From Candidatus Parcubacteria bacterium (GTDB lineage: Bacteria; Patescibacteriota; Minisyncoccia; Phycocordibacterales; PALSA-1337): a stretch of DNA of 63,466 nt. Location: positions 1 through 63,466 of the forward strand of contig CAVYBN010000006.1 of NCBI GenBank assembly GCA_963766795.1, in the 5' to 3' direction. Shown here piece by piece: positions 2,630-49,021 of the stretch; the stretch's first letter is position 1, and every line of letters begins with the position of its first letter. The position numbers were made by a program, and so were the translations under genes. The notes beneath the pieces were generated by a model, which saw only the letters and a program-made list of their open reading frames with translations, did not search any database and was not told where the DNA came from.

Positions 2630-2929
2630 GGATGAAGTATAAGGTATAAAGGTATAAAAGTATAAATGTATACCCTGATACTTTTATATCTTGCGTTTAA
2701 AACTCTTCGCCCCATTTGACCCAAGCCGGATAGATGTTGCCAGCCACAAAGACGCATGGCAGGATGATGATCGCCGAGATGACCCACAACACGAAATGTA
2801 TGACCTTAGGCAAAACGCCGATCACGGCGGCAAACATATCGCCTATGGCTTTGAAGAATTCGCTCATCATAGATGTAAGAAAAACGCTAACACATTATAG
2901 TGCATTAACGCAAGAACGCCTCTTTCGTG

Positions 2930-3003
2930 TGCACCCTGCAAGATTCGAACTTGCGGCCTCGCCCGTGTGAAGGGCGCGCTCTAGCCAACTGAGCTAAGGG
3001 TGC
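2930..3003 (-). tRNA. tRNA-Val(CAC)
   Basis: Cloverleaf GCACCCT/AGGGTGC acceptor stem, anticodon arm CGCCC-TT CAC AC-GGGCG, T loop TTCGAAT. Confidence 0.95.
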
Positions 3004-3252: not shown

Positions 3253-4200
3253 TTAGACCAAGTTATCAAAGCTCAATTTGTTAACAGATTCAGCTAGATC
3301 TTCGACGGTAAGTGACCGCAAATATTGTTGAGTCATCCGGAGGTCGGTATGGCCGAGCAATTTCTGGATCTTATCCAGAGTCACGCCAGCAGCGGCGAGA
3401 TTGTGCGCGAACGTATGACGGAATCTATGCAGGTGGAATGAGAAACCGGACAACCCGACCAAGCGTTTAGTCCAATGTACGATCCCATCACGAGTCAGAC
3501 CAGAATCCTTATTCAAGGAAACGAAAAGAAATGGTGTCGTGTATTTACCCTTGCGTCTTTCGTCCATATAATCCCCAAGCATCGACTTCAAAATAAGATT
3601 CATCGGTATAAGCCGAGTTTGCTTTGATTTAGAAGTTTCGGCCCGTATTCGTACAGTATTTCTGTCGAATTCCAAGTCATCCGGTCTCAAACCGAGCAAT
3701 TCTCCTCTTCTAATACCGGTAAACAGAAGCGTATGCACGATTGCCAGATCTCTCTTAAGTTGCAAACGAGCCGGTGAGTTTGCGTATATAGCCGCTATGA
3801 TCTTATCGATTTCGTCTTTTCGTAACGATCTCGCGTCGTCATATTTTACTTTAGGGCGCTTATGTCTGATCTCCAATAGAGGATTTGCCGCTATCTCCTT
3901 GCGAATCAGCAGCCATTGGAAAAAAGTGTTCAGTTTCGACCAGTAGGTCCGGACCGTCGACTTCCTAACGCCGATTTCCTCGATTCTGGCTTTGCCTATA
4001 TATCTAATCCGTGTTTGCAATCTCTCAAAGAACTTTGTCATGGTAATTGTATTTATTGTCTCGACCGAGATGTCGGGAATCAGTAGTGTTAGTAATTTGA
4101 ACGCTTGCTCATATCCCCGGATCGTGTCTGGTCTGGAAAGCCTAGCGAATTTGCAGTCGCGCGTGAATTCCTCGAATTTTCCGTTTAGCTCATTGTTCAT
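3253..4200 (-). CDS. Tyrosine recombinase/integrase
   Basis: Catalytic set present: GIRRGELL (R), HRFRHT (HxxR), LGH, QQY. N-terminal SAM-like region (RPDTIRGY). Probable start MNNEL at 4200. Confidence 0.95.
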   Translation of the reverse strand: MNNELNGKFEEFTRDCKFARLSRPDTIRGYEQAFKLLTLLIPDISVETINTITMTKFFERLQTRIRYIGKARIEEIGVRKSTVRTYWSKLNTFFQWLLIRKEIAANPLLEIRHKRPKVKYDDARSLRKDEIDKIIAAIYANSPARLQLKRDLAIVHTLLFTGIRRGELLGLRPDDLEFDRNTVRIRAETSKSKQTRLIPMNLILKSMLGDYMDERRKGKYTTPFLFVSLNKDSGLTRDGIVHWTKRLVGLSGFSFHLHRFRHTFAHNLAAAGVTLDKIQKLLGHTDLRMTQQYLRSLTVEDLAESVNKLSFDNLV

Positions 4201-4316
4201 TAGTTTGTTATGGCCCTTTTCCCAACCTCGCAACTAGCACATAGCGGATCCTTTCCGGACCCTTGTTTTATATGGCTAATTTGGCGGCGGTTTTGGCACA
4301 AGGGGCATTGTGGCGT

Positions 4317-5896: not shown

Positions 5897-7182
5897 CAGA
5901 GCTGTCCCATTAAACTCTAAGGAGGTGCATTTGGATGACTTCTGGCTCGAGCAACTTCGATACCGATGAAGATGTTAACGACAAGAGATCAATGAGTGGT
6001 CGTCGCGTAAACAAGGTCTCTCGCACCATGCGGGTAAGTTCCAGGAGTGATCGCGGGAATCTGGTCTGAAACTTGATGTAGGCAAGCAGGAGGTAGTAGA
6101 TCATGGCCACCCAGATCTGTGAAAGCACCGCGTTCTTTGAAGTCCCCAGAAATGATTTGATATGCAGATTCTGTTTGATCCATTTGAAGAAGTTCTCGAT
6201 ACGCCAGCGTTCTTTGTAGACAAGAGCGACCTCGTCACCGGAAAGTTTAAAATTGTTGGTCAGATATTCGTAAACATCTCCAGTATCGGAGAGATACCGG
6301 ACACGTCGTAATTCTTTGCCGTATTCTGACGCATGAAGTCGCCCAACCCAAATGCGCTCATCAGCCAATACGCGTCCCAAGGGTTCGCTGTGCACACCAC
6401 GTACCTTGATCAACTGATTTCCTCTGGGACGCGTAACGAAGAAAAGATCAAGCAGGTCAATCTCCTCCCACCAGCTGCAGTCAACGTAACCACGGTCAAA
6501 AACCACGATACTGCCTCGTGGTAGAGAGATTAAGAGATTTCTAGCACCAATGATGTCCGCTACCTTTCCATCGGTCACAGTGAGTACTTCTGGCATAGTG
6601 GTGCGGTTGTTGATGACCGTATGTATCTTGATTGCTCCTTTTTCATGCGAGTAGTGAGCCCAGTCAAAGAGCGAGAGGCAGAGGGTGATGGTAGTCGCAT
6701 CAAGCGCGTACAAGGGATTGTCGAATGTAAATGTCCTTTCCGGCGTGATGTCTCGACATTGCGCAAGCAGAGCGTAAAACAAATGCTCGAATATTCTGTA
6801 GTCGCGCGTATTGTTCGCTCTCGCCACCGTTGAGCGGGCGACAGATTGAACGCCGAGATGGTGCCAGACTTCCGGATTGGTGCGAAGTCCGGTCTCGATG
6901 TCGCGCAGACTTTCTTTGCCTGTTGCTTGCGCGTACAGTAGCAATACCAATTGATTCCAGACGGTCATTTTCTTCACATATCTGTCTGCGTTATGCTGTC
7001 CCACAAAACGCCTGAATTCATATTTTGGCAGAAATGCTAAAAGTTGCCCGAAAATCGTGCTAGAGTAATACATACGAAAAGCCCCGTGAGGGAAATTAAG
7101 CTCATACTAAGTCCGACAGACATAGTATGGCTTACCTCATCGGGTTTTTCTAGTTTCGGTCTATTTTAGTGGGACAGGTGTG
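5897..7182 (-). mobile_element. IS4-family insertion sequence (copy 1)
   Basis: 18-bp imperfect terminal inverted repeats CAGAGCTGTCCCATTAAA (5897-5914) and, on the reverse strand, CACACCTGTCCCACTAAA (7165-7182). No target-site duplication seen. Confidence 0.85.
5910..7073 (-). CDS. IS4-family DDE transposase (DUF4372-like N-terminus)
   Basis: YALDATTI, VVFDRGY, Y-x3-RW-x-IE-x-FF-x-WIKQ signature. Confidence 0.95.
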   Translation of the reverse strand: MYYSSTIFGQLLAFLPKYEFRRFVGQHNADRYVKKMTVWNQLVLLLYAQATGKESLRDIETGLRTNPEVWHHLGVQSVARSTVARANNTRDYRIFEHLFYALLAQCRDITPERTFTFDNPLYALDATTITLCLSLFDWAHYSHEKGAIKIHTVINNRTTMPEVLTVTDGKVADIIGARNLLISLPRGSIVVFDRGYVDCSWWEEIDLLDLFFVTRPRGNQLIKVRGVHSEPLGRVLADERIWVGRLHASEYGKELRRVRYLSDTGDVYEYLTNNFKLSGDEVALVYKERWRIENFFKWIKQNLHIKSFLGTSKNAVLSQIWVAMIYYLLLAYIKFQTRFPRSLLELTRMVRETLFTRRPLIDLLSLTSSSVSKLLEPEVIQMHLLRV

Positions 7183-7644
7183 GATATACCCCCTGTTCCT
7201 GTGGAAAGTCAAAATGGAGGGGTAAATGAGTCCTTCGTCGTTGCCACTCCTCAGGATCTCCGACCAGAGAGCAAGACGGCAGAACCACCAAAAGAGCCTC
7301 AAATTGAAGCGGTTTCAGCAACTCCCGTACAATCTGTGTCTGCGCCAGCGCCACAAACATCGGCTACTACACAGACTCAATCGCTGGCGCAACAAGATCA
7401 AACCGGATTCATCAAGAGTCTGCTCATTAAAGCTCAAGCCAAAATTCAATTCAACAAGCAGAAAAAGCTAGATAAGATCATTCTGTTTGCTCAGAAGAAG
7501 AAAATTGTTGCTAATGAGGATATTCAAATGCTTCTGCATGTCTCGAGTGCTACAGCAACCAGATATCTGGTGAAGTTAGTTCAGCAAGGTCGCCTTGCTC
7601 GCGCGGGGAACCCGCGCGACGCCAAATACCAATTCTTGCGCTGA
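7183..7644 (+). pseudogene. 5'-truncated gene with Pro/Gln-rich linker and C-terminal winged helix
   Basis: Begins at the IS edge; C-terminus NEDIQMLLHVSSATATRYLVKLVQQGRL is a typical wHTH. Confidence 0.65.
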
Positions 7645-7653
7645 AATATGTTT

Positions 7654-7680
7654 GTGGCTCAATTCCATCATTTGAGCCAT
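7654..7680 (+). repeat. 27-bp palindromic site, copy a
   Basis: GTGGCTCAA-TTCCATCAT-TTGAGCCAT. Confidence 0.8.
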
Positions 7681-7712
7681 AGGAGTTTCTGATTACCACC
7701 GAAATCTGTCGA

Positions 7713-7883
7713 GAAGCGGTCGACTTCCGCTTCTTCCATCAACCGTTTTTCGCGCCAAGCACATATCTGTATGGCGGACGCGCCCCTCGGTTGCGACCGG
7801 CAACGGAGGGAAGCGCAGGAGCCATTCGGATATGTGCAAAGGCGCGCCCATTATCATCTGTAGAAGCGGAAGTGGGCCGCTTC
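7713..7883. repeat. GAAGCGG long-hairpin element, copy 1
   Basis: GAAGCGGTCGACTTCCGCTTC ... GAAGCGGAAGTGGGCCGCTTC; related copies at 11293 and 62401. Confidence 0.85.
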
Positions 7884-7910
7884 GAACCGCGCGATTGTGA
7901 TAAAATAGTT

Positions 7911-7937
7911 GTGGCTCAATTGGTGGAATTGAGCCAC
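7911..7937 (-). repeat. 27-bp palindromic site, copy b
   Basis: GTGGCTCAA-TTGGTGGAA-TTGAGCCAC; the spacer is inverted relative to copy a. Confidence 0.85.
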
Positions 7938-8695
7938 AACCGCCGCCCCAAAAAACCAGAAGGAGGACGGCACGGCATTCCTCCCCTCAAACCCCTCCTG
8001 CCGTGCCGTCCGACACAACTTTTTTGAGATTGCCGATCAGCAGATCGTGCCGGCGGAGGCAAGAAAAAAGAAAAATAGCGTCGCCAAGCGACTCCGCATT
8101 TCATTCAAGAAAAAATCACACTTGCGGATTTTCGGCGAAAAATGTTCGAACTTCAAGTAAAAACCTCCGCAAAAATCGCAAAAAACGCAGAGTCGCCCGA
8201 AAAAGGCGAAATGCAATCACCGAGTTGAGGGCGGGGCGGAATTCCTCCCCAGACCCAGTATGAGAGAATCCAGAGCGGACAGCTTTTGTACTAGAATGCA
8301 CAGGCGGAAGCCGGCATAGCGTTCCCGCACCCTGTCACCGCCATTCGGCGGACACGACTAAGGGGGGATTGCACCGGCTTCCCCCTGTGCACGGCAATGA
8401 ACCGATAGCGGTTGGTCACCCTCCGGGGACATGACTCACGCATACTGGGTGTGGGGGAAGGCCTCCGTCCGCCCTCGCTATTTGTTTTTTGCCGACACCG
8501 CCTTCGCCTATTTTTTCGGGCGGGCGCGGGGGCAAAATATGATAGAATCGGAATGTTTCGATAGCCCTAACTGTGGATAACCAAGGGATCATCGATATCA
8601 CCATGATTTCCCCTTGATTTCTAGCGGCTAATTTGATATATTTTATTTACCAAAATGGTTAATCAAAATTGCAATACTTAACACCTCATGCTATC

Positions 8696-9037
8696 ATGAA
8701 AATATCCTTCGATAATCCAAAGCATGAAGCATTGGTCAATGACTTCGACGCTCTCTGCCGGCGGTATAACGAGAAGAGCGACGACTGCGCCACGGAGATT
8801 CTGGACACCATCAACGCATTACATGTTGCCGATTCATTATTCGATCTACCACGCATATACCATCCCCATCCGCTTAGCGGAGAGTACAAGGGATGCTTTG
8901 CAGCTAACGCAACCAAGACGCATAGAGTCATCTTCAAACCAGACCATGCAGGCGATCCGGAATTCAGGGTAGACAATCCCAAAAGCATAAAAACAATTAT
9001 TATACTGGAAATATTCAAAAATTATCATCAGAAATAA
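8696..9037 (+). CDS. higB: HigB-like toxin (plasmid-maintenance killer family)
   Basis: MKISF start, HPHPLSGEYKGCFA...HRVIF, directly upstream of a HigA-type gene. Confidence 0.75.
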   Translation: MKISFDNPKHEALVNDFDALCRRYNEKSDDCATEILDTINALHVADSLFDLPRIYHPHPLSGEYKGCFAANATKTHRVIFKPDHAGDPEFRVDNPKSIKTIIILEIFKNYHQK

Positions 9038-11292: not shown

Positions 11293-11431
11293 GAAGCGGT
11301 CGACTTCCGCTTCTCTCATCAACTGTTGTTCGCGTCCGGCGGAATGTCGGTGCGGCGAAATGCAATGAAGCCGCACGGACTGACGCAAGGACGCGCCACA
11401 TTCATCCGCTGAAGCGGAAGTGGGCCGCTTC
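11293..11431. repeat. GAAGCGG long-hairpin element, copy 2
   Basis: Same 21-nt arms as copy 1 around a different, shorter interior. Confidence 0.85.
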
Positions 11432-11462
11432 GAACAACTGCGATTCCCATGCTAGAATACAC

Positions 11463-11489
11463 GTGGCTCAATTGGTGGGAATGAGCCAC
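11463..11489 (-). repeat. 27-bp palindromic site, copy c
   Basis: GTGGCTCAA-TTGGTGGGA-ATGAGCCAC. Confidence 0.8.
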
Positions 11490-11743
11490 AAGCAATCTCT
11501 GACTTAGTTCACCTTTTCATCCTAATCCCCGCGCCCGCCGCAAAAAAACGGCAGGGCAGGCCGGCAAAAAACAAATAGCTAGGGCGGACGGAGTCCTTCC
11601 CCCACACCCCCAGGCCTCCGTCCGCCCTCTCCTCATTGTTCCGGATTTTCGGCGAAAAAGGTTCGAACTTTGTTCATGTACTGCCGCCAAGGTTTATTAA
11701 GCAAATAAAAGATTCCGCAGGCACTCTTAAAAGATTAATCTTT

Positions 11744-17465: not shown

Positions 17466-17502
17466 GATTAGGATTGTGGGTAAGAGTTTAAGCATTAATT
17501 AT

Positions 17503-17632
17503 CAAAATTTCAAAATCCAAATAACAAATTCCAGATAAAATCCAAATTTCAATGATCAAAAAACGCCGTATCTTATTTTGAAATTTGAATTCTGAGATTT
17601 CTCTGTAATTTGAATTCTGAATTTTGAGATTT
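17503..17632 (-). repeat. Heptamer-arm element family A, copy 1
   Basis: Reverse complement aligns with 19311-19441 (CAGAGAAATCTCAGAATTCAAAT...TTTGATCATTG...TTATCTGGAATTTG). Confidence 0.9.
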
Positions 17633-17664
17633 AATTGAAAACTAGTCTAATCTTTCAATCTTAA

Positions 17665-18304
17665 ATGACTCACAATAGTTGGCAAATTCATCCTCGCTCG
17701 CCATCACGAATCCGAGTGGAACAAGCTCGGGAAATGGACCGGCGTGACCAATGTCGGCTTGAGCCCGTACGGCTTCGAGATGTCCAGGAAAATGGGCGGG
17801 CTTTTGAAAGGCATCCGCGTCGACCAGGCCTTCGCTTCAGATCAAGTCCGCTCGCTGGAAACGCTCCTGTGCATGGAAGACGACGACGGCATAGACGTGC
17901 CGATCATCCGGAATGCCGCCTTGAACGAACGCGATTACGGCGATTACACCGGCAAGGACAAGTGGCAAGTCGAGAAGGAAGTCGGCGAGAAAGCTTTCGA
18001 AGCCATCCGGCGCGGTTGGGATGTACCGGTGCCGAACGGCGAGACCTTGAAGATGGTCTATGAGCGAGCCGTCCCATTCTATTTGAAAACGATCGTGCCG
18101 TTGGTCTCGGCCGGCAAGGACATCTTGGTCGTGGCTCACGGCAATTCTCTGCGCGCTATCGTCAAATATATCGAGAGCATCTCCGCCGAAGCCATCGTCA
18201 AGCTGGAATTTCCGTTCGGAGGCATATTCATATATGATATCGATGCGGACGGGCATATGGTTCACAAAGAAGTGCGGCAGGTTGAGTCGAAGGTGAACGC
18301 GTAA
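17665..18304 (+). CDS. gpmA: 2,3-bisphosphoglycerate-dependent phosphoglycerate mutase (+1 frameshift near the start)
   Basis: Corrected frame gives [19 protein letters not shown]; LNERDYG; VAHGNSLRA. Confidence 0.92.
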
Positions 18305-18356
18305 AACAAATGCAAAGGTTAAAAGTCAAAAGTCAAAATTGCAAGTTAAAAGTTTT

Positions 18357-18439
18357 GTCATTCCCGCGAAAGCGGGAATCCAGGGTCTTGCAAATTTCGA
18401 CTGTAATAATACTCTGGACCCCCGCTTCCGCGGGGGTAC
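18357..18439. repeat. CGTC-type REP doublet, copy 1 (intergenic gpmA-pyk)
   Basis: GTCATTCCCGCGAAAGCGGGAATCCAG ... CTGGACCCCCGCTTCCGCGGGGGTAC, preceded by TCAAAAG heptamers. Confidence 0.85.
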
Positions 18440-18480
18440 AAGGTGAATTAATTACCAATCTTTCAATGATTAACAATCCT

Positions 18481-19290
18481 ATGACCCACTCAAAAGCCCA
18501 AATAGTCGCGACCCTCGGCTCTGTCTCGGACTCTCCCGAGAAGCTCAAAGCCATGATCGAGCACCAGCTCGACGTGGTCAGGCTGAATTTCTCATGGGCA
18601 GACCTTGAGACTAGGACCAGGCAGATCGCGCTCGTTCGGAAGCTGGAAAAAGAATGCGGGCGGCATATACCCATCATCGAAGATCTGCCGGGACCGCGCG
18701 TCCAGGAAGGCGCGGAGCATACCTACGACCGTAAGGCCGCTTCCGTCTCGGCTCTGACAGACCGCGACAGGGATTTCATCAAGTTCGGCGCCAGCCAAGG
18801 CGTGGAATATATCGCCGTTTCGTTCGTCGGCGGGCCCGAGGATATCCAGGCTTGCCGTGAAGCCATCCAAGCTTGTTCTGGCACCCAGCGCGTCATCGCC
18901 AAGATCGAGCGCAAGGTCGCGCTCGAGCGCATAGACGAGATCATCGCCGTCACCGACGCGGTCATGGTGGCTCGCGGCGATCTTGGCAATGAGATCCCGC
19001 TCGAAGCCATCCCGTTCGCGCAGGACATGATCATCAAGAAGTGCAAAGCCGCCGGAAAGCCGGTCATCACCGCCACGCAGATGATGCTCACCATGGTGGA
19101 CGATCCGATCCCGACGCGCGCAGAAGTCACCGATGTCGCCAACGCCATCCTCCAAGGCTCCGACGCGGTCATGCTCTCCGAAGAGACTGCCAAAGGCAAG
19201 TATCCGGTCGAAACGGTGGCCATGATGGAGCGCATCGTGCTCGAAGCCGAGAGGCATATGGGAGGGAAGCTGGTCATCAATCCGCTATGA
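18481..19290 (+). CDS. pyk: Pyruvate kinase, minimal form
   Basis: [67 protein letters not shown]; 269 aa from 18481. Confidence 0.95.
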
Positions 19291-19310
19291 TTGAGGATTG
19301 AAAGATTATA

Positions 19311-19441
19311 AAAATCTCAAATTTCAGAATTCAATTTCCAGAGAAATCTCAGAATTCAAATCTCAAAAATGATATCATAGCGCCATTTGATCATTGGAGT
19401 TTGGAACTTATCTGGAATTTGTGATTTGAAATTTGAATTTT
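19311..19441 (+). repeat. Heptamer-arm element family A, copy 2
   Basis: CAAAT-rich left arm, short spacer, TTTG-rich right arm. Confidence 0.9.
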
Positions 19442-19484
19442 ATTCACAAATATTAACTTTCAATGAAATCTTAGGAATAAAGAC

Positions 19485-26724: not shown

Positions 26725-28470
26725 ATGAGCGTACTCGACATCCTGCTCGAAAAGAAGCTGATCAGCAAGGATGACGTCCGCGAAGCGCGCAAGCGGATGT
26801 CTTCCGGCGCCACTCTGGAAGAAGCCCTGATCTCGGAAGGCGTCAAGCCAGACGACATAACTGCCGCCCGCGGCGAATTTCTGAATATCCCGGTCCGTGC
26901 CATCGCCGAGACTTCCGTGCCGTTCGAGGTCCTCGAATACGTCCCGCAGGAATCCGCCGAGCATTACCGTTTCGTGCCGATCGGCCTCAAAGAAGGCACG
27001 CTCGAGGTCGGCGTCGTCGATCCCGACAACATGGAGGCTCGCGACGCCTTGAATTTCCTGGCGGCCAAGAAGAACATCCCGTACAAGATGTATCTCATCA
27101 CCATCGACGACTTCCAGAAAGTCGTCGAGATGTACAAAGGCCTGACCGGCGAAGTCTCGCGCGCCCTGACCGAGCTCGAGTCCGAGCTCTCGGTTGAGAC
27201 CGAAGCCGTCAAGAAAGCACCGGGATCGCCGGCTCCGGGAGCGCCCGGCAAGGGCGACAAGAACGCTCCGGCCGAAGAGACGATCATCATCGAGGACGCG
27301 CCGGTGGTCAAGATCGTGGCGACCATCGTCCGCTACGCCGTCGAGGGAGAAGCTTCCGACGTCCACATCGAGCACATGCGCGACAAGGTCCGCGTGCGCT
27401 TCCGCGTGGACGGCGTGCTCACGACCAGCCTGGTCCTGCCGCCGCAGGTGCATTCGGCGGTGGTCAGCCGCATCAAAGTCCTTTCCAACATGCGCTTGGA
27501 CGAGAAGAGGAAGCCGCAAGACGGGCGCTTCTCGGCCAGGATCGACGGCCGGCGCATCGATTTCCGCGTCTCCACATTCCCGGCTTATTACGGCGAGAAA
27601 GTCGAAATGCGCATCCTCGACCAAGCCAAAGGCCTGCACGCTCTCGACGACATGGGAATGACGCCCGCCAATCTCTCTATGATCAAGCAAGCCATCGACC
27701 GTCCCTACGGCATGATCCTCATCACCGGTCCGACCGGTTCCGGCAAGTCGACGACGCTCTATTCTCTGCTGAACGAGGTCGACCGCGAGAGCTACAATGT
27801 TCTTTCGCTCGAAGACCCAGTTGAATATCAGATGGAAGGCGTCAGCCAGTCGCAGGTGCGGCCGGAGATCGGCTATGACTTCAGCTCCGGTTTGCGCACG
27901 ACGCTGCGCCAAGACCCGGACATCATCATGGTGGGTGAGATCCGAGACAAGGAGACCGCTCAACTGGCCGTCCAGGCGGCCTTGACCGGCCACCTGGTCT
28001 TTTCGACTTTGCACACCAACAACGCCGCCGGCATCATTCCGCGCTTGGTCGACATGGGCGTCGACCCGTATCTGATCGCGCCGACCCTCATCCTCGGCGT
28101 GGCCCAGCGCCTAGTCGGCCTCTTGCCGCCCAACGGGGGAGAGCTGGTGCCCGTCGAGGGCAGCATCAAGGCCATGATCGACCGACAGTTCAGCGACCTG
28201 CCGGCCGAATACAAGAAGAACATCCCCTGGAGCGACAAGGTGGCCAAGATCAAGGTCACCCCGGAATCGCCGCGCGGCACCCGCGGGCGCATGGCGGTCT
28301 TCGAGATGTTCACCATGGACAAGGACGTCGAGAGCATCATCCTCCACAATCCGACCGAGACCGAGATCGTCAAGTCCTTGCGCGCCAAAGGCATGCTGAC
28401 TTTGAAGGAGGACGCCATCATCAAGGCCTTCGAGCGCAAGATACCCATTGAAGAGGTGAATAAGCTATAG
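26725..28470 (+). CDS. pilB: Type IV pilus extension ATPase PilB/GspE
   Basis: ASDVHIE, PQDGRF, GPTGSGKSTTL (Walker A), LRQDPDIIMVGEIRD, GHLVFSTLHTN. Confidence 0.96.
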   Translation: MSVLDILLEKKLISKDDVREARKRMSSGATLEEALISEGVKPDDITAARGEFLNIPVRAIAETSVPFEVLEYVPQESAEHYRFVPIGLKEGTLEVGVVDPDNMEARDALNFLAAKKNIPYKMYLITIDDFQKVVEMYKGLTGEVSRALTELESELSVETEAVKKAPGSPAPGAPGKGDKNAPAEETIIIEDAPVVKIVATIVRYAVEGEASDVHIEHMRDKVRVRFRVDGVLTTSLVLPPQVHSAVVSRIKVLSNMRLDEKRKPQDGRFSARIDGRRIDFRVSTFPAYYGEKVEMRILDQAKGLHALDDMGMTPANLSMIKQAIDRPYGMILITGPTGSGKSTTLYSLLNEVDRESYNVLSLEDPVEYQMEGVSQSQVRPEIGYDFSSGLRTTLRQDPDIIMVGEIRDKETAQLAVQAALTGHLVFSTLHTNNAAGIIPRLVDMGVDPYLIAPTLILGVAQRLVGLLPPNGGELVPVEGSIKAMIDRQFSDLPAEYKKNIPWSDKVAKIKVTPESPRGTRGRMAVFEMFTMDKDVESIILHNPTETEIVKSLRAKGMLTLKEDAIIKAFERKIPIEEVNKL

Positions 28471-28557
28471 GGGACAGGGTGCAGGGTACAGTAAAAAATC
28501 AGAATTCAACATTTAATTTATACTTTCTACACCCTGTACCCTGTACCCTGTACCCTG
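28470..28557. repeat. GGGTACA heptamer-arm element family B, copy 1
   Basis: gggacagggtgcagggtacag ... ccctgtaccctgtaccctgtaccctg. Confidence 0.9.
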
Positions 28558-28570
28558 ATATACTATACCC

Positions 28571-28969
28571 ATGGCTGATCAACCTAATCAGAAGAAGATC
28601 CTCTTCGTCGACGACGACAAATTCCTGCTCGACATGTACGCCTTGAAGTTCTCCAAAGCCGGCTACGAGGTCAAGACCGCCGATTCGGCCGAAGCGGCCA
28701 TGGCTCTCCTCAAGGGCGGCTTCGCGCCGGATGCCATGCTCATAGACATCGTCATGCCAGGCACTGACGGCCTGGACTTGGTCTCCTCGGTGCGCTCCGC
28801 CCGCTTGGCGCCGGACGCCGCGATCATCATGCTCACCAACCAAAGCGCTTCCGACGACATCGCCCGGTCCAAGAAGCTTGGCATCGACGGCTTCGTCGTC
28901 AAGGCCACGACCATCCCCTCGGAAGTCCTGTCGGAGGTCGAGAAGATGATGGCGACGAAGAATAATTAA
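28571..28969 (+). CDS. Stand-alone response regulator (receiver domain)
   Basis: ILFVDDD, LIDIVMPGTDG, IIMLTN, FVVKA. Confidence 0.93.
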   Translation: MADQPNQKKILFVDDDKFLLDMYALKFSKAGYEVKTADSAEAAMALLKGGFAPDAMLIDIVMPGTDGLDLVSSVRSARLAPDAAIIMLTNQSASDDIARSKKLGIDGFVVKATTIPSEVLSEVEKMMATKNN

Positions 28970-29135
28970 ATTCCAAATTCCAAGCACCAATCTCCAAATG
29001 AAATGAAAATAACAAATTCCAAAAATCAAATTCCAGAAAAATCTCAGAATTCAAATTTCAAAGATAAGCTCAAAAACCTTTTGATCATTGGAATTTGGAG
29101 CTTATCTGGAAATTGTAATTTGGAATTTGTAATTT
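28968..29135 (+). repeat. Heptamer-arm element family A, copy 3 (left arm duplicated)
   Basis: Core CCAGAAAAATCTCAGAATTCAAATTTCAAA...TTTTGATCATTGGAATTTGGAGCTTATCTGGA. Confidence 0.9.
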
Positions 29136-29142
29136 AACTACA

Positions 29143-30202
29143 ATGGACTACCGCAAAGAAATCCAAGAGCTCGTCGACCTGATCATCAAGGAGAACGCTT
29201 CCGACCTGCATCTGTCGGCCGGGCGCACCCCGATCATCCGAGTATCCGGAGGGCTCATTCCTTTGGTCAAGAAGCCGGTCATCACGGATGCCGACATGAA
29301 GGGCTTCGTGGGCATCTTCCTCTCGGCCCCGGGCCGCGAGATCCTAGAGCGCGACAAGACCGCCGATTTCTCGTACAGCCTGGTCCAGACGCGATTCCGC
29401 GGCAACGTCTATTACCGCCAAGGGTCGTTATCCATAGCGCTACGCCTCATCCCGCGGGTCATCCGTACCCTGGCCGAGCTCAATTTGCCGCCGATCCTGG
29501 AGACCTTCACCCGCCGCAGGCAGGGATTCTTCCTGACGGTCGGACCGGTCGGGCAGGGCAAGACCACTACTCTGGCCACTTTGATCGAGATCATCAACCA
29601 GACCCGGGCCGAGCACATCCTGACCATCGAAGATCCCGATCGAATACCAATTCGAGTCGAAGCGCTCCATCATCGACCAGCGCGAGGTCCGCATAGACAC
29701 GCCGGATTTCAGCGACGCCCTGGTCTCGATGTTCCGCGAGGACATAGACGTCTGCATGGTCGGCGAGATGCGCGACGCCATGACCATATCCACGGCCGTG
29801 ACCGCCGCCGAGACCGGCCACTTGATCTTCTCGACCCTGCACACCAACGACGCTTCCCAGACCATCGACCGCATCATCGACTCGTTCCCGTCCGATCAGC
29901 AGGACCAGATCCGCGTCCAGCTGGCCGGATCGATGACCGGCATCTTCTCACAGCGCCTGATCCCGCGGATCTCCGGCGGCCTCATCCCGGCCTACGAGCT
30001 CCTGATCAACAACAACGCCGTCTCCAACCTGATCCGCGAGAAGCGCATACACGAGATCAACACGGTCATAGAGACCAGCTCGCAGGAAGGCATGATCGAC
30101 TTCAACCGCTCGCTGGCTGAACTGGTCAGAGCGGGGGAGATCACGGTGGAGAGCGCATATTTGAACTCGCATAATCCGAAAGTCCTCGAAAAAATGATTT
30201 GA
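29143..30202 (+). CDS. pilT: Type IV pilus retraction ATPase PilT (+1 frameshift near 29637)
   Basis: ASDLHLSAG, GPVGQGKTTTL, TIEDP|IE, VGEMRD, GHLIFSTLHTN, RIIDSFP. Confidence 0.95.
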
Positions 30203-30203
30203 A

Positions 30204-30276
30204 AGGGTACAGGGGTCAGGGAACAGGGTACAGTAAAACTCAAAACCACACCCTGTACCCTGTACCCTGTACCCTG
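30204..30276. repeat. GGGTACA heptamer-arm element family B, copy 2
   Basis: agggtacaggggtcagggaacagggtacag ... ccctgtaccctgtaccctgtaccctg. Confidence 0.9.
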
Positions 30277-30289
30277 ATATACTTAACCC

Positions 30290-31507
30290 ATGCTCTTCAA
30301 CTACGAAGCCCTCGACAATACCGGAGCCAAGAAGATCGGCTCGATCGACGCCGTCAACGTAGACATAGCCATCGCCTCGCTCCAGCGGCGCGGTCTGGTC
30401 ATCACCTCGGTCGTCGAAGCCGGCAAGCCGGCCTCATTCCTGTCGATCAACGTCTCTTTCTTCGACCGCGTCTCGAGCAAGGACGTGGTCATCCTCTCCC
30501 GCCAGCTCTCGACCCTGTTCGAAGCCCAAGTCTCGGCCATGCGCATCTTCCGCCTCTTGGCCTCCGAGACCGAGAAGCGCCCCCTGGCCGTGGTCTTGGA
30601 AGCCGTGGCTGACGATCTGCAATCCGGCGATTCCATCTCCGCGGCTCTGGAGAAGCATCCGAAAGTCTTTTCGGAATTCTATGCCTCCATGGTCAAGGCC
30701 GGCGAAGAATCCGGCAAGCTCAACGACACCTTCCAATATCTGGCCGATTATCTGGACCGCACTTACGAGCTCTCCTCCAAAGTCCGCGGCGCGCTCATAT
30801 ATCCTGCCTTCGTGATGGTCACTTTCATCACCGTGATGATACTCATGTTCACCATGATCATCCCCAAGATCACTCCCATTCTGGAGCAATCCGGCGCCAC
30901 TATTCCCGTCTATACGCAGGTCATCATCGGCATCAGCAATTTCCTGGTCCAATACGGCCTGGTACTCTTGGCGGCTCTGATCGTGGGCGCGTTCTTCCTG
31001 GTGCGCTTCATCCGCACTCCGGCCGGCCGCTTCGCCTACGACCGCGCCAAGCTGCACGTCCCGTACGTCTCGACGCTCTACCGCAAGCTCTATCTCTCGC
31101 GCCTGGCCGACAACATGAATACCATGCTCTCTTCCGGCATCCCGATGGTCCGGGCGCTCGAATTGACCTCGACCGTCATCAACAACGGCGTGTACAAGAG
31201 GATCCTCTCCGACGCCATCGAAGCGGTCAAAGGCGGCGTCTCCCTCTCCGACGCGCTTTCGGTCGACCCCAAGGCCATCCCCGGCATCTTGACGCAGATG
31301 ACCAAGGTCGGCGAAGAAGCCGGCGAAGTCGGCCCCATCCTGAAGACCCTCTCCAATTTCTACGCCCGCGAAGTCTCCACGGCCGTCGACGCCCTGGTCT
31401 CCCTGATCGAGCCGGCCATGATCGTCCTTCTGGGCGCCGGCGTAGGCATCCTCCTCGCGGCCGTGCTGGTGCCTATCTACTCGATCGCGCAATCGAGCGG
31501 GTCGTAA
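30290..31507 (+). CDS. pilC: Type IV pilus platform protein PilC/GspF
   Basis: RQLSTL, AGEESG, ALIYPAF, SGIP, GEEAG, LIEPAMI. Confidence 0.95.
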   Translation: MLFNYEALDNTGAKKIGSIDAVNVDIAIASLQRRGLVITSVVEAGKPASFLSINVSFFDRVSSKDVVILSRQLSTLFEAQVSAMRIFRLLASETEKRPLAVVLEAVADDLQSGDSISAALEKHPKVFSEFYASMVKAGEESGKLNDTFQYLADYLDRTYELSSKVRGALIYPAFVMVTFITVMILMFTMIIPKITPILEQSGATIPVYTQVIIGISNFLVQYGLVLLAALIVGAFFLVRFIRTPAGRFAYDRAKLHVPYVSTLYRKLYLSRLADNMNTMLSSGIPMVRALELTSTVINNGVYKRILSDAIEAVKGGVSLSDALSVDPKAIPGILTQMTKVGEEAGEVGPILKTLSNFYAREVSTAVDALVSLIEPAMIVLLGAGVGILLAAVLVPIYSIAQSSGS

Positions 31508-39522: not shown

Positions 39523-40312
39523 ATGAATCATTTAACAAAAATCAAGAAGCTAGAAGCCGGAAGTGAATCTGTCACCCCCGCGAAAGCGGTGGTCCAGAGT
39601 CAAACCTCTAGATCTGATTCAGATGGCAAAACACTGGATTCCCGCTTGCGCGGGAATGACACAGCCCTAAGCTCGATGTCTTCGCGTGGTTTTACCCTCG
39701 TCGAGATGATCGTCTCGCTGATGATATTCTCGATCGTGGCCGTGGTGGCTCTGGCCGCGCTGGTCAAGATCATCGACGCCAATAATAAGGCCCAGACCAT
39801 CCAAGCCGCCGTGACCAGCTTGTCATTCTCACTGGACTCCATGTCTCGCGAATTGCGCACGGGGTCGAACATCCATTGTATGTTTCATTCAGACGGAACG
39901 TTTGATTCGAGCAGATTTCTCCCGCAAATTCAAGCAATTGTCCGCTGGGTTCAAGTAGCGGACAGAATCTGATCTTCTTTCCAATCTGCGCGCGTCGAGC
40001 ACGGCGGCTTTCCGCATTGCCGGCTTTGGTACGCATATCTTTTCACTGGAACGAATCCAGTGCAACTCGAAAAAGCCGAACAGCCCTCAAATAGCGCTGA
40101 TTGCACCAGTGACTCATTCGGCCCGGCTTCATACACCTCCGTCGTGCCATCAGAATGTCACCCTGACCTCATACCAATTGGGAGTCAGCTATGATCAGAA
40201 CACACAACCGTATCCGTTGGTCTTCGTGGAGCTTTCGGGCACTGCCGGCAACAAAGAGCAGACCAAGACCTATTTCAGCGTCCAGACCGCCATGTCGCCG
40301 CGAACGCCATAG
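39523..40312 (+). CDS. Minor pilin (PilW-like) with a REP insertion in the leader; frameshifted
   Basis: RG|FTLVEMIVS, SMSRELRTG, C-terminal VQTAMSPR. Confidence 0.78.
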
Positions 40313-40321
40313 AATACCGCC

Positions 40322-40951
40322 ATGAATCATCAAACAGGGTACAGGGTACAGGGTACAGAAAAGAAGAAACATGTTTTTTTCCCTGCACCCTGCACCCTGC
40401 ACCCTGAACCCTTGCGTTCCCGCGGTTTTACCCTCGTCGAGACCCTAGTCGCCATCACCGTCCTCATGATCGCCATCGCCGGGCCGCTGGTCGTGGCCAG
40501 CAAAGGGCTATTCGGCGCTTTGGCTTCGAAAGACCAGATGATCGCCGCGTATCTGGCGCAGGAGAGCATGGAGACGATCAAGAACATCAGAGATAACGAC
40601 ATAGCTGCCAACGCGAGTTCCTGGGTGTTGGCCAATACTTCAGGCTCTCCGACGCATTTGACGGAATGCGGCAATATAGGAGGATTCTGTGACGCCAGCG
40701 CCGTGGACAGTCCGTCGTTTCAGGTCTGTCCATTTAACGGCGTCGCGCAACCCTGCCCGATATATCTGGTGAACGGATATTACAGTCACAACAGCGGCGG
40801 CACGCAGACTCTCTTCACGCGCTACTTCTACGTGTCGAATCTAAATGTCGACGGCAAAGAATTGCTAGTCACGGTGGTGGTCGATTGGCATGAAGGCACG
40901 ACGCCTTATGAGATATCGCTGTCGAGCGAGCTGACGGATTCGACGAGATAA
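40322..40951 (+). CDS. Minor pilin (PilV-like) with a heptamer element in the leader
   Basis: RG|FTLVETLVAI, YLAQESME; leader TGYRVQGTE...PCTLHPEP. Confidence 0.88.
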   Translation: MNHQTGYRVQGTEKKKHVFFPAPCTLHPEPLRSRGFTLVETLVAITVLMIAIAGPLVVASKGLFGALASKDQMIAAYLAQESMETIKNIRDNDIAANASSWVLANTSGSPTHLTECGNIGGFCDASAVDSPSFQVCPFNGVAQPCPIYLVNGYYSHNSGGTQTLFTRYFYVSNLNVDGKELLVTVVVDWHEGTTPYEISLSSELTDSTR

Positions 40952-40953
40952 AT

Positions 40954-41526
40954 ATGAACAATTTTCAATTTTCAATTTTCAATTTTCAATCCCGATCTCG
41001 CGGCTACACTCTGCTCTTCGCCGTGCTGGTGGCCGCTCTGGTCTTGGGCGTAGCAGTTTTCATTCTGGAGATCAGCACCAAGCAGTATGAGCTATCGGCC
41101 TCGGCCAGAGATTCCATGTATTCTTTCTACGCCGCCGATTCCGGCATAGAATGCGTGGCTCTGGATCAGCTGTACGCGACTTCCAGCTCGGCGATCAATT
41201 TCACTTGCGGCAATGACGCGGTGACTTGGACAGTTATCCCGATTTCCGATCCCAACGGTATTTATAAAGACGACGGCTATTACTATGAGCTGGATCTCAA
41301 TCTGCAGTTCTCCAGTCCGACTTGCGCGGTCATAGACATCGTGGCGTTCTATTCGCCGCAGCCTAACAGTTATGAGCATGATATTACGACATCCAGAGGA
41401 TACAACCACTGCGTGAATATCGGAACTTCAGGCGCGCCGAATTGGGTTCCCGACACCTCCAATCCCAATACCGTGGAGCGCGCCCTCCAGCTTTCTCATA
41501 CGACGGCGCCGCCCGGCAGCTATTGA
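40954..41526 (+). CDS. PilX-like minor pilin
   Basis: RG|YTLLFAVLV (no Glu5), AFYAADSGIEC-like motif; the leader is made of AATTTTC heptamers. Confidence 0.8.
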   Translation: MNNFQFSIFNFQSRSRGYTLLFAVLVAALVLGVAVFILEISTKQYELSASARDSMYSFYAADSGIECVALDQLYATSSSAINFTCGNDAVTWTVIPISDPNGIYKDDGYYYELDLNLQFSSPTCAVIDIVAFYSPQPNSYEHDITTSRGYNHCVNIGTSGAPNWVPDTSNPNTVERALQLSHTTAPPGSY

Positions 41527-41567
41527 CCAGAGCTTTTTCCGCGCGGCGATTGTGATATCCTTAACGC

Positions 41568-47990: not shown

Positions 47991-48890
47991 ATGGACAAGG
48001 AAAAAATAAAGCAGAAGATCGCCGAGCTTGAAGCCGCCATGAGCGCGGCTGGTTTTTGGGCGGACAAGGGGAAGGCGCAGGCGGCCATCAGGGAATTGGG
48101 TGAATTGAAGTCGGAGCTCGAGGGCATCGGCAAATACGACAAGGGCGATGCCATCTTGAGCATTCTGTCAGGAGCCGGAGGCGATGATGCTGAAGACTTC
48201 TCGGCGATGCTCCTGAAGATGTACAGGAAATATTGCGACTCGAAAGGCTGGGGTTGGCAGGTCATTCACGAAAGCGGGAATGATCATGGAGGCTATAGGA
48301 ATATTACGATTGAGATAAGCGGGAAGTCCGGCGGCTCTTCATTGGGAGCCTATGGCACGCTGAAGAACGAGACAGGCGTGCATCGATTGGTCAGGATCTC
48401 GCCGTTCGATTCCAATAAGAAGCGCCACACCTCATTCTCGCTCGTCGAAGTCCTGCCGAAATTCGAAAAGACGAATTCCGCCGACCTAGTCATCCCCGAC
48501 AGCGACGTCGAAGTCTCGATCGCCAAATCCGGCGGACCCGGCGGCCAGAATGTGAATAAGCGCGAGACAGCCGTGCGCCTCCTCCACAAGCCGACCAACA
48601 TCTCGATACACGTGACCTCGGAGCGTTCGCAGGCCCAGAATCGCGAGAAGGCCATGGATATCCTGCGCGCCAAGCTCTGGAAACGCATGGAAGACGAGCG
48701 ACACGCCCGGGAGAAGGGGATGCAGGTCTCTTCTACTACTTCAATCGAGTGGGGCAATCAGATTCGCTCATACGTCTTGCATCCTTACAAAATGGTTAAG
48801 GATCACCGCACTGATCATGAGACTTCGCAGGTGGATAAGGTCTTGGAAGGGGAATTGGATGAGTTCATCGAGGCGGAGAAGTCCTTATAG
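47991..48890 (+). CDS. prfB: Peptide chain release factor 2, short form
   Basis: [23 protein letters not shown] (SPF), GGPGGQNVN (GGQ), [13 protein letters not shown]. Confidence 0.95.
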
Positions 48891-48891
48891 G

Positions 48892-49021
48892 AAAATTCCA
48901 AATTTCAAATCACAAATTCCAGAGAAATCTCAAAATTCAAATCTCAAATGGCACCGGCTCATGGTTTTGATCATTGGATTTTGGAGCTTTTCTGGAATTT
49001 GATTTTTGGGATTTGAGATTT
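48892..49021 (+). repeat. Heptamer-arm element family A, copy 4
   Basis: CAAATTCCAGAGAAATCTCAAAATTCAAATCTCAAA...TTTTGATCATTGGATTTTGGAGCTTTTCTGGAATTTG. Confidence 0.9.

What the first reader, a model, noticed from the sequence alone, without database searches (positions are those of the whole stretch)
7713..7883. Conserved long hairpin with invariant 21-nt arms and a covarying interior (three copies: 7713, 11293, 62401)
Seen: each copy starts (G/A)AAGCGGTCGACTTCCGCTTC and ends GAAGCGGAAGTGGGCCGCTTCGAAC. The arms are 19/21 complementary with the same two mismatches kept in all copies. Interiors differ but stay paired, e.g. GCACATATC/GATATGTGC in copy 1 versus GCACACATC/GATGTGTG in copy 3. All three are in mobile regions, and copy 3 lies ~90 bp upstream of the serine recombinase. 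Inference: a structured ncRNA or a folded ssDNA site (attC-like in concept, not in sequence) tied to a CPR recombinase-island family.
Basis: partly seen in the sequence, partly recalled or inferred. Interest (0 to 1): 0.72.

Follow-up and report, generated by a model that had tools for sequence, protein, structure and literature searches.

The report
Strand-specific hairpin of recombinase islands
The three repeats belong to an undescribed family of 140-195-base hairpins that fold on one DNA strand only and are built into recombinase-driven mobile islands of one family of ultra-small (CPR) bacteria. They most likely act like the "single-strand origins" that let mobile DNA rebuild its second strand.

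Summary
Three copies lie in the window, at 7713-7887, 11293-11435 and 62401-62573, and the 0.9-Mb genome holds eight. All share identical 21-nt arms that pair with one T.G wobble and one G.G mismatch. A covariance model finds the element in 46 of 164 genomes of the same family, in none of 400 other genomes of the class, and in no Rfam family.

Across 37 copies, 96% of cells pair and 38 of 49 pairs show changes on both sides. The arms are as conserved as non-synonymous codon positions of the neighbouring gene. The interior drifts like synonymous sites yet stays paired. The same strand folds better in 37 of 37 copies, and in 13 of 13 independent metagenome copies.

The hairpin is not a free-jumping repeat. 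It sits 65-105 nt upstream of a large serine recombinase gene, or about 65 nt after a small winged-helix gene at the far end of the island's cargo. A diverged sister class always lies upstream of, and co-oriented with, a rolling-circle (HUH) Rep gene.

My best reading (about 0.4) is a folded single-stranded-DNA signal, like a single-strand origin. A structured RNA remains possible (about 0.25). No expression data could be obtained.

The parts
7713..7887 (+). Long hairpin, copy 1 (context type B: follows the winged-helix ORF)
   Evidence: -104.3 kcal/mol, z -9.8; CM R1 191 bits
11293..11435 (+). Long hairpin, copy 2 (short-interior subfamily). It lies 30 nt after the stop of a PsbP-like cargo ORF. 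It is the only copy in the genome without a recombinase or winged-helix gene upstream.
62401..62573 (+). Long hairpin, copy 3 (context type A: 90 nt upstream of, and divergent from, the serine recombinase start)
7180..7644 (+). Winged-helix ORF (low-complexity N-terminus, C-terminal wHTH). It ends about 65 nt before type-B hairpins. There are four such gene-hairpin pairs in this genome.
   Evidence: weak MarR/HTH_24/DeoR hits
7654..7680 (.). Small 9-9-9 palindromic hairpin upstream of copy 1. It is the inverted partner of 7911-7937.
   Evidence: (I23)
7911..7937 (.). Small 9-9-9 palindromic hairpin about 28 nt downstream of copy 1. On the minus strand it reads as a terminator-like site.
11463..11489 (.). 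Small 9-9-9 palindromic hairpin downstream of copy 2
   Evidence: (D13)
8142..8153 (.). ATGTTCGAACTT palindrome resembling a tRNA T-loop, the presumed attachment core, 259 nt after copy 1
   Evidence: (D20)
11659..11670 (.). AGGTTCGAACTT palindrome, the presumed attachment core, 228 nt after copy 2
   Evidence: (D20)
8447..8529 (.). Left arm of the 83-nt inverted repeat that brackets the cargo module ending in copy 2
   Evidence: I3
11527..11609 (.). Right arm of that inverted repeat (it contains a GC-rich hairpin), about 95 nt after copy 2
   Evidence: (I3)
62063..62311 (-). N-terminal piece (Resolvase domain) of the large serine recombinase next to copy 3
59307..60656 (-). C-terminal piece (Recombinase plus Zn-ribbon domains) of the same recombinase. 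An IS110 element (60890-61969) separates it from the N-terminal piece. Its 3' end overlaps tRNA-Gln (59265-59336).
62312..62343 (-). Conserved recombinase promoter: TTGACTT ... TGGTAAAAT, 6 nt, then ATG (apparently leaderless). It shows that the hairpin is not in the recombinase 5' UTR.
   Evidence: conserved in 17 type-A loci
62610..62730 (+). Inverted duplicate of the recombinase gene's 3' end (121 nt, 93% match to 59418-59538). It starts about 40 nt after copy 3.
   Evidence: (I1)

Best explanation
The element is a cis-acting hairpin that works when its sense strand is single-stranded, most likely as DNA. It is a standard component of the integrative islands that large serine recombinases (LSRs) insert at tRNA genes in one family of Patescibacteria (Taylorbacteria/Nomurabacteria-like MAGs). 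It has three parts. The first is a sequence-constrained 21-bp basal helix, with core GTC(G/T)ACTTCCGC over GCGGAAGTGGGC and a kept G.G mismatch. The second is a large asymmetric internal loop. The third is an apical stem of variable length that is constrained only in structure.

I propose that it acts like a single-strand origin or ssDNA initiation signal (sso, M13 minus-origin or Frpo type). The folded strand would be recognised by a host enzyme (RNA polymerase or primase) that primes synthesis of the complementary strand. In the sister class the island carries its own rolling-circle (HUH) Rep, and there the hairpin would be the lagging-strand origin. In the window's class there is no Rep. 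There each module (the recombinase module and the cargo module) keeps one hairpin near its attachment site. The ssDNA would presumably come from uptake, from transfer, or from a Rep supplied in trans.

Shown: the fold, its strand specificity, its constraint pattern, its fixed positions and orientation, and the Rep association. Inferred: DNA rather than RNA, and priming as the activity.
For: - **Fold under selection.** In 37 copies, 96.2% of cells pair and 38 of 49 pairs change on both sides. None of 500 shuffles reaches this, and slid controls give about 38% paired. Even the basal helix covaries in diverged members, for example GAACGCG/CGCGTTC and GGGCATG/CATGCCC.
- **Constraint pattern.** Arms are 90.6% identical. 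Codon positions 1+2 of the adjacent recombinase gene are 91.4% identical and position 3 is 52.7%. The interior is 58% identical yet paired.
- **Strand specificity.** The sense strand folds better in 37/37 copies (mean 13.5 kcal/mol) and in 13/13 independent metagenome copies. G.U pairs number 82 against 22 A.C. The asymmetry persists with DNA parameters.
- **Not homogenised.** The G.G mismatch is kept in 31/37 copies, and the non-complementary internal loop is kept.
- **Fixed places.** 16 of 29 best loci from other genomes lie 65-105 nt upstream of the LSR start, and 9-10 of 29 lie about 65 nt after the wHTH stop. The complete genome OY969557.1 shows three islands with the layout tRNA | LSR<- hairpin-> | TTCGAA | cargo | wHTH-> hairpin-> | TTCGAA.
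- **Rep association.** Class-2 hairpins lie upstream of, and co-oriented with, a REP_ORF2-G2P HUH Rep (E 2.6e-21; HFHALIW and YLTKYMAK motifs). This holds at 25 or more genome loci and at 17/17 metagenome loci. It holds even where the intervening gene is on the other strand. A separate candidate double-strand origin sits next to rep.
- **Little sign of sense transcription.** The recombinase has its own promoter abutting its ATG. No conserved promoter precedes the hairpin in type A, type B or class 2, where the upstream DNA is variable host sequence.
- **Literature.** An sso is defined by orientation specificity, and its function depends on structure more than on sequence (PMC4595007). ssDNA promoters and primers of the Frpo type are stem-loops that mimic dsDNA (PMC11541004).
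Against: - The window's own class has no Rep. None is found in this 85%-complete genome, and 25 of 46 hairpin-bearing genomes lack the Rep. The source of ssDNA for class 1 is therefore hypothetical.
- No convincing -35/-10 pair could be read in the stem. There is only a -35-like T(C/T)GAC(T/C).
- There is no similarity to the conserved ssoA motifs I recall from the literature (RSB, CS-6). This comparison is from memory; one search found neither term in the paper read.
- No circular or free replicon was found.
- Relative to the recombinase gene, the hairpin has opposite orientations in the two classes.
- G.T bias and covariation fit RNA equally well.
Confidence: 0.4

Rival explanations
1. It is a structured RNA. 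The sense strand is transcribed, either as the 3' end of the wHTH/cargo transcript or from its own promoter. The long helix would then act as an RNase III processing site, an mRNA-stabilising site or an insulating site. Alternatively it is a protein-binding small RNA of the island.
For: Covariation with a G.U excess and tandem G.A at the helix base is typical of RNA. In type B and at copy 2 the hairpin follows a co-oriented ORF by 30-65 nt. A perfect helix of 21 bp or more would be an RNase III substrate (general knowledge).
Against: In type A, nothing co-oriented lies upstream, and no conserved promoter is seen in the roughly 50 nt between the recombinase promoter and the hairpin. In class 2, the DNA upstream of the palindrome is variable host sequence, and the next gene has its own promoter or lies on the other strand. 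In type B, terminator-like small hairpins facing inwards bracket the element. The apical loops carry no recurrent RNA tetraloop motif. No Rfam family matches.
Confidence: 0.25
2. It is a folded-DNA recombination or termination site, attC-like or like a rolling-circle terminus. An enzyme would act on the folded strand at the helix base, so that the segment between two directly repeated hairpins (the cargo) can be released or exchanged as a cassette. The enzyme would be an HUH Rep supplied in trans or, unprecedentedly, the serine recombinase.
For: The architecture parallels attC: a conserved basal boxes-like helix with a fixed non-Watson-Crick position, an unpaired central region, a variable terminal structure, and folding on one strand. 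Two hairpins in direct orientation flank the cargo in every complete island. At copy 2, homology to C1:32753 begins exactly at the left helix base.
Against: Homology breakpoints between islands fall mainly at the TTCGAA cores 200-270 nt downstream, not at the hairpin. No integron-type integrase accompanies the hairpins; the only tyrosine recombinase near one lies 3.5 kb away. There is no GTTRRRY core. Serine recombinases are known to act only on dsDNA. All 37 hairpins are internally matched, so there are no chimeras. Rep is absent from most class-1 genomes.
Confidence: 0.12
3. It is a selfish palindromic repeat (MITE-like, Correia/ERIC-like) that has hitch-hiked in these islands and has no function for them.
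For: It is multi-copy (1-16 per genome), it has terminal inverted repeats, it is confined to one family and patchy within it (46/164 genomes), and it often lies next to contig breaks. LSR relatives at 61% identity or less lack it, so the recombinase does not need it.
Against: There is no variable target-site duplication; the TCGAR at both edges belongs to the element. The arms match the ends of no insertion sequence, since every arm copy in the genome lies in a hairpin. Positions relative to three different genes are fixed across genera. The arms are as conserved as non-synonymous sites. A dsDNA transposon would not show strand-specific pairing or a kept mismatch.
Confidence: 0.1
4. It is a double-stranded protein-binding region or cruciform. 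The two 7-7-7 palindromic arms would be operators for the neighbouring winged-helix protein or accessory sites for the recombinase. They would regulate the recombinase promoter and an outward promoter.
For: Each arm of the main subfamily is a dyad (GAAGCGG-N7-CCGCTTC). The left arm lies about 50 nt from the recombinase promoter. An extended -10-like TGCTAGAAT follows the right arm in type B.
Against: The intra-arm dyad is lost in diverged members, while the long-range helix is kept by compensatory change. Interior covariation and strand asymmetry have no explanation on duplex DNA.
Confidence: 0.08

Closest known systems
Single-strand origins (sso) of rolling-circle plasmids and ICEs (ssoA/ssoU; pBAA1 sso; sso1 of ICEBs1) and the minus-strand origin of filamentous phages
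   Same: Both are long imperfect hairpins of about 150-300 nt that are active on one strand and in one orientation only. Both depend on structure more than on sequence (PMC4595007). Both are non-coding, lie upstream of and co-oriented with an HUH Rep gene (class 2), and are carried by integrative elements.
   Different: There is no sequence similarity to known sso types. The window's class lacks any Rep. Two copies occur per island, next to serine-recombinase attachment sites. Priming activity is untested.
Frpo/ssi single-stranded DNA promoters of conjugative plasmid leading regions
   Same: Both are stem-loops that make ssDNA look double-stranded to a host polymerase (PMC11541004). In type A, the folding strand is the template strand of the adjacent recombinase gene, which is the geometry an ssDNA promoter would need.
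   Different: No clear -35/-10 pair lies in the stem. No conjugation machinery is present. In type B and class 2, no gene lies in the direction such a promoter would fire.
Integron attC sites
   Same: Both have a conserved basal helix with a fixed non-Watson-Crick position, an unpaired central region, a variable apical structure, single-strand folding, and a position at the 3' end of gene modules in direct orientation.
   Different: There is no IntI tyrosine recombinase and no GTTRRRY core. Only 2-3 copies occur per island. Module junctions lie at TTCGAA cores, not at the hairpin.
Lambda sib retroregulator
   Same: Both are hairpins placed just across the attachment site from the recombinase gene. 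Their linkage to that gene therefore differs between the integrated and excised states.
   Different: In the window's class, the better-folding strand is antisense to the recombinase transcript. Only class 2 has the sib-like polarity. No RNase III evidence exists.
Correia/ERIC/RPE-type palindromic repeats (MITE-like)
   Same: Both are multi-copy intergenic palindromes of about 100-200 bp with conserved inverted ends.
   Different: The hairpin has fixed positions inside one kind of island. It shows no target duplication, strand-specific pairing, and arms under strong sequence constraint.

Membership tests
Any Rfam RNA family | Match to a curated covariance model | tested here: not met
   At gathering thresholds only tRNAs were found in the window. 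A permissive scan of 7100-8700 gave only chance-level hits, with E 0.9-5 and far below gathering scores.
Single-strand origin (sso) | Extensive intrastrand secondary structure of the single strand | tested here: met
   With DNA parameters, copy 1 folds at -59.4 kcal/mol (z -8.9). The class-2 310-nt palindrome folds at -96.4 (z -11.4).
Single-strand origin (sso) | Orientation or strand specificity relative to leading-strand replication (same strand as rep) | tested here: inconclusive
   Met for class 2: co-oriented with the HUH Rep at 25 or more genome loci and at 17/17 metagenome loci. The three copies in the window belong to class 1, whose islands and genome have no Rep.
Single-strand origin (sso) | Function carried by structure rather than primary sequence | tested here: met
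   The interior is 58% identical but 95-99% paired, and 38/49 pairs carry compensatory changes. The definition is taken from PMC4595007.
Single-strand origin (sso) | Promotes second-strand synthesis and reduces ssDNA accumulation | not testable with these tools
   This needs plasmid or phage assays, or in-vitro priming.
Frpo/ssi ssDNA promoter | -35 and -10 elements presented in the stem | tested here: inconclusive
   A -35-like T(C/T)GAC(T/C) lies in the left arm (TTGACC or TTGACT in several class-2 copies). No consistent -10 was found at 16-19 nt on either arm (reading).
Integron attC | Adjacent IntI-type tyrosine recombinase and attI | tested here: not met
   Six PF00589 hits occur in the genome, and only one (C6:3253-4233) lies within 4 kb of a hairpin. 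The neighbours of the hairpins are serine recombinases.
Integron attC | R''/R' core GTTRRRY at the helix base | tested here: not met
   The helix base reads TCGAG-AAGCGG ... CCGCTT-CGAR.
Integron attC | Single-strand fold with fixed non-paired bases and a variable terminal structure | tested here: met
   The G.G mismatch is kept in 31/37 copies. Length varies from 138 to 195 nt through the apical domain.
MITE / Correia-like repeat | Target-site duplication and insertion polymorphism at varied sites | tested here: not met
   The flanks are the element's own TCGAR, with no correlated variable duplication. Positions relative to the LSR, wHTH and Rep genes are fixed.
MITE / Correia-like repeat | An autonomous partner element whose ends carry the same inverted repeats | tested here: not met
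   All 15 arm occurrences in the genome (seven left-right pairs and one lone right-arm-like copy at C16:10534) lie in the eight hairpins, and none lies at an IS end.
IS110 bridge RNA | Lies within the IS110 element beside its DEDD recombinase gene | tested here: not met
   The IS110 element occupies about 60660-62060 inside the recombinase gene. Copy 3 lies outside it, beyond the recombinase start.
Retron msr-msd | Adjacent reverse transcriptase | tested here: not met
   No RT appears among the Pfam hits of the neighbouring ORFs.

The most novel reading that the evidence does not exclude
The hairpins are folded-ssDNA processing sites of an integron-like cassette system that uses no tyrosine integrase. 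An HUH Rep (in cis in class 2, in trans for class 1), or the serine recombinase itself, would initiate and terminate at two directly repeated hairpins. This would release the cargo between them as a single-stranded circle. The retained hairpin would then prime conversion of that circle to dsDNA, which would be re-inserted at tRNA T-loop cores.
Probability: 0.1. Interest if true: 0.85.

Novelty: new variant of a known kind. Interest (0 to 1): 0.55.

Why it matters
CPR/Patescibacteria have tiny genomes, no known plasmids or conjugation systems, and poorly understood gene flow. This study gives a sequence-defined, strand-specific DNA hairpin that recurs in two classes of serine-recombinase islands. 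It also finds integrative rolling-circle replicons (HUH Rep plus serine recombinase docked at tRNA genes) in these organisms. Together these give a concrete handle on how their mobile DNA is replicated or established. If the hairpin is an sso-like signal, single-stranded intermediates would be a routine part of island life in CPR bacteria. It would also provide a portable, host-specific priming element for future genetic tools. If it proves to be RNA, it is a new and easily modelled RNA family tied to recombinase islands.

Tried and rejected
- **Rfam.** Gathering and permissive scans found no family.
- **IMG/VR.** Three 18-mer hits have no hairpin and are chance matches. The Rep search in viral contigs found nothing.
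- **Non-CPR hits.** Nine exact 20-mer hits in Proteobacteria, Chloroflexi and others carry no hairpin and are chance matches.
- **Free circular replicons.** None of 16 whole metagenome contigs has a terminal overlap. The exact-protein look-up returned only the source MAG.
- **Rep or dso-like motif in the window's genome.** Neither was found.
- **The hairpin as a universal partner of this recombinase family.** Rejected, because relatives at 61% identity or less have attachment arms directly upstream and no long hairpin.
- **Arms as dimer operators.** Rejected as the primary constraint, because the 7-7-7 dyad is not conserved while the long-range helix is.
- **TCGAR at both edges as a target duplication.** Rejected, because the left and right variants do not correlate across copies.
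- **Promoter scans around the three copies.** No sense-strand promoter was found.
- **Replication-direction bias in the complete genome.** Orientations are mixed (from coordinates).
- **Literature.** Five searches found no description of this element.

Full report
**1. Observation**

The left-arm 20-mer and the right-arm 25-mer each occur three times on the + strand without a mismatch. Chance expects 0.04 and 0.00 matches. Each copy folds into one long hairpin: -104.3, -78.7 and -103.9 kcal/mol, with z-scores of -9.8, -7.2 and -9.3.

The basal helix is 21 bp long, with one T.G wobble and one G.G mismatch. Above it come a large asymmetric internal loop, a 6-bp GC helix and a variable apical stem. 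Rfam has no matching family.

The whole genome is 916 kb in 18 contigs, and the window is contig C6. It holds eight copies.

**2. Is the fold selected?**

I built a covariance model from seven copies. It finds the element in 46 of 164 genomes of the same family, across 4 of 14 genera, at 1-16 matches per genome; the count includes reverse-strand matches of the same copies. It finds none in 400 other genomes of the class. Named records are Candidatus Taylorbacteria, Nomurabacteria, Minisyncoccia and "Patescibacteria group" MAGs. Exact 20-mer hits in non-CPR genomes carry no hairpin.

I aligned 37 sense copies, the eight of this genome and the best from each of 29 other genomes. The results are:
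- 96.2% of cells are paired.
- 38 of 49 pairs change on both sides.
- None of 500 shuffles reaches any measure.
- Sliding the partner columns drops pairing to about 38%.

The basal helix also covaries in diverged members, for example GAACGCG...CGCGTTC and GGGCATG...CATGCCC. In those members the intra-arm 7-7-7 palindrome of the main subfamily is lost. The long-range helix is therefore the selected feature, not two duplex dyads.

Among 12 loci next to orthologous recombinase genes, the identities are as follows:

| Region | Pairwise identity |
|---|---|
| Hairpin arms | 90.6% |
| Codon positions 1+2 of the adjacent gene | 91.4% |
| Codon position 3 of the adjacent gene | 52.7% |
| Internal loops | 56% |
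| Hairpin interior | 58% |

The base is thus constrained in sequence, and the interior only in structure.

**3. Strand**

The sense strand folds better than its complement in 37 of 37 copies, by a mean of 13.5 kcal/mol. G.U pairs outnumber A.C by 82 to 22, or 56 to 22 without the fixed wobble. The asymmetry holds with DNA energy parameters. It also holds in 13 of 13 independent metagenome copies.

The G.G mismatch is kept in 31 of 37 copies, and the internal loop stays non-complementary. A DNA-level process that merely homogenises palindrome arms would erase both features. The element therefore acts as a single strand of one polarity.

**4. Context**

The hairpin is not scattered. I distinguish three contexts.

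*Type A.*
- The hairpin lies 65-105 nt upstream of, and divergent from, the start of a large serine recombinase (LSR). This covers three of the eight copies in this genome, including copy 3, and 16 of 29 best loci elsewhere.
- About 22 of 26 LSR genes at 68% identity or more to the reference have the hairpin adjacent. Two more have it displaced by about 1.2 kb.
- The LSR has its own conserved promoter: TTGACTT ... TGGTAAAAT, then 6 nt, then ATG. It is apparently leaderless, so the hairpin is not its 5' UTR.
- Some 35-50 nt after the hairpin comes an inverted duplicate of the LSR's 3' coding end (I1).

*Type B.*
- The hairpin lies about 65 nt after the stop of a small ORF that has a low-complexity N-terminus and a C-terminal winged helix. 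This covers four copies here, including copy 1, and 9-10 of 29 loci elsewhere. One of those follows a truncated remnant of the ORF.
- Small 9-9-9 palindromic hairpins flank it in inverted orientation. A TTCGAA palindrome lies 200-270 nt downstream.

*Copy 2* is the single exception. It follows a PsbP-like cargo gene, and its homology to C1:32753 starts exactly at the helix base.

The complete chromosome OY969557.1 shows the whole plan three times:

tRNA | LSR<- hairpinA-> | TTCGAA | 4-10 kb cargo | wHTH-> hairpinB-> | TTCGAA | (tRNA)

The TTCGAA core resembles a tRNA T-loop. Compare AGATTCGAACTT inside tRNA-Val at 2941-2952. The LSR gene runs into the tRNA 3' end. All three LSR genes of this clade in the window's genome are broken, by an IS110 insertion, by frameshifts and by a deletion.

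LSR relatives at 61% identity or less have no long hairpin upstream. The hairpin is therefore an accessory part of particular island lineages, not a requirement of the enzyme.

**5. A sister class with a rolling-circle Rep**

Lower-scoring hairpins (80-130 bits) form a second class. They lie 0.4-3 kb upstream of, and co-oriented with, a gene that is followed by a second LSR clade (about 35% identical) and a tRNA gene.

That gene encodes an HUH replication initiator. It matches Pfam REP_ORF2-G2P at E 2.6e-21, with weaker RepSA and Helitron-like hits. The motifs GAVHFHAL(I/F/V)W and SSYL(T/A)KYMAKSF are invariant.

The pairing of hairpin and rep holds at 25 or more genome loci. It also holds at 17 of 17 metagenome loci that have enough upstream sequence, always on the rep strand. 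The orientation is kept even when the gene between hairpin and rep lies on the other strand.

In this class the palindrome extends to about 310 nt and abuts the left junction of the element. A separate conserved GC hairpin plus ATGACTTGCTAGAGACC sits just before rep. It is a candidate double-strand origin or rep promoter.

A long, strand-specific, structure-constrained hairpin upstream of and co-oriented with rep is the textbook layout of a single-strand origin. In PMC4595007 an sso is defined by orientation-specific promotion of second-strand synthesis. That paper also reports that structure can matter more than sequence.

**6. Mechanism and its limits**

I therefore read the family as a folded-ssDNA signal, most likely for complementary-strand initiation (confidence about 0.4). 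Only this activity fits all three contexts. Synthesis primed in the stem would run towards the 5' side of the sense strand in every case. In type A, that same polarity makes the sense strand the template of the recombinase gene, which is the geometry of an Frpo-type ssDNA promoter (PMC11541004).

The weak points are these:
- The window's class has no Rep. This genome has none, and 25 of 46 hairpin-bearing genomes lack it.
- I could not read a convincing -35/-10 pair in the stem.
- No free circles were found.

A structured RNA remains a serious rival (about 0.25). I mark it down for two reasons. No conserved promoter or co-oriented gene precedes type-A or class-2 hairpins. Inward-facing, terminator-like small hairpins bracket type-B copies.

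An attC-like or rolling-circle-terminus role (about 0.12) is attractive because two direct copies flank each cargo. However, module junctions map to the TTCGAA cores, and no suitable enzyme is adjacent in class 1.

A selfish MITE (about 0.1) and a duplex operator or cruciform (about 0.08) fit the strand asymmetry, the kept mismatch and the fixed positions poorly.

**7. Novelty**

No Rfam family and no paper found describe this element. Earlier notes from this scan describe the same island family. One of them describes a different strand-specific hairpin for which ssDNA was also preferred. I treated these notes as leads and re-derived the architecture here.

The new points in this report are:
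- the quantitative constraint pattern;
- the family-restricted distribution;
- the two fixed contexts;
- the homologous class beside an HUH Rep in integrative rolling-circle elements of CPR bacteria.

I class the finding as a new variant of a known kind (sso-like elements). A minority reading, an integron-like cassette system based on ssDNA, would be categorically new.

Noticed in passing
L121-L128 (e.g. L123:2015-5966); metagenome loci L146-L174: About 4-kb integrative elements of CPR bacteria that combine a rolling-circle HUH Rep (REP_ORF2-G2P) with a large serine recombinase docked at a tRNA gene. They also carry a 310-nt palindrome at the far end, and a conserved GC hairpin plus ATGACTTGCTAGAGACC just upstream of rep.
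   Followed up: partly
window 62312-62343 (minus strand) and 16 other loci: The recombinase promoter TTGACTT...TGGTAAAAT lies only 6 nt before the ATG, which implies a leaderless mRNA. The class-2 orfX shows the same layout (TGTTAAACT, 6 nt, ATG).
   Followed up: partly
G000 C9:82400-82800 and C16:10250-10760 (L015, L017): In two type-B copies, a direct repeat of about 55 nt (small 9-9-9 hairpin plus AAGGATTTCTGAATTTCTTTC) flanks the long hairpin on both sides. It looks as if the hairpin unit had been inserted with a long duplication.
   Followed up: no
window 7897-7906, 11448-11458; C9, C16 copies: An extended -10-like motif (TGATAAAAT, TGCTAGAAT, TGCTAATAT) sits between the long hairpin and the downstream 9-9-9 hairpin. 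On the other strand the same bases form the T-tail of a terminator-like site. It shares TGCTAGA with the class-2 motif upstream of rep.
   Followed up: partly
window 3253-4233 (minus), next to tRNA-Val 2929-3003: A tyrosine recombinase gene (PF00589) abuts tRNA-Val, 3.5 kb from copy 1. Similar 326-328-aa paralogues lie on contigs C5 and C18. This may be a second kind of tRNA-docking element.
   Followed up: no
G000 C6:59307-62311, C1:26531-28092, C16:24522-26079: All three recombinase genes of the hairpin-associated clade in this genome are inactivated, by an IS110 insertion, by frameshifts and by an internal deletion. The hairpin arms beside them remain intact.
   Followed up: partly
window 5910-7073 and 62749-63466: Two different IS4-like DDE transposase genes (38% identical) lie next to hairpin-bearing modules. 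The second one cuts the attachment arm after copy 3, before the expected TTCGAA core.
   Followed up: partly
window 17500-19450, 28460-30300, 39560-43430, 48890-49850: Several other unrelated families of intergenic palindromes were seen: AT-rich 70-nt units, TGTCATTCCCGCGAAAGCGGGAATCCAGGGT hairpins and ACAGGGT heptamer arrays.
   Followed up: no
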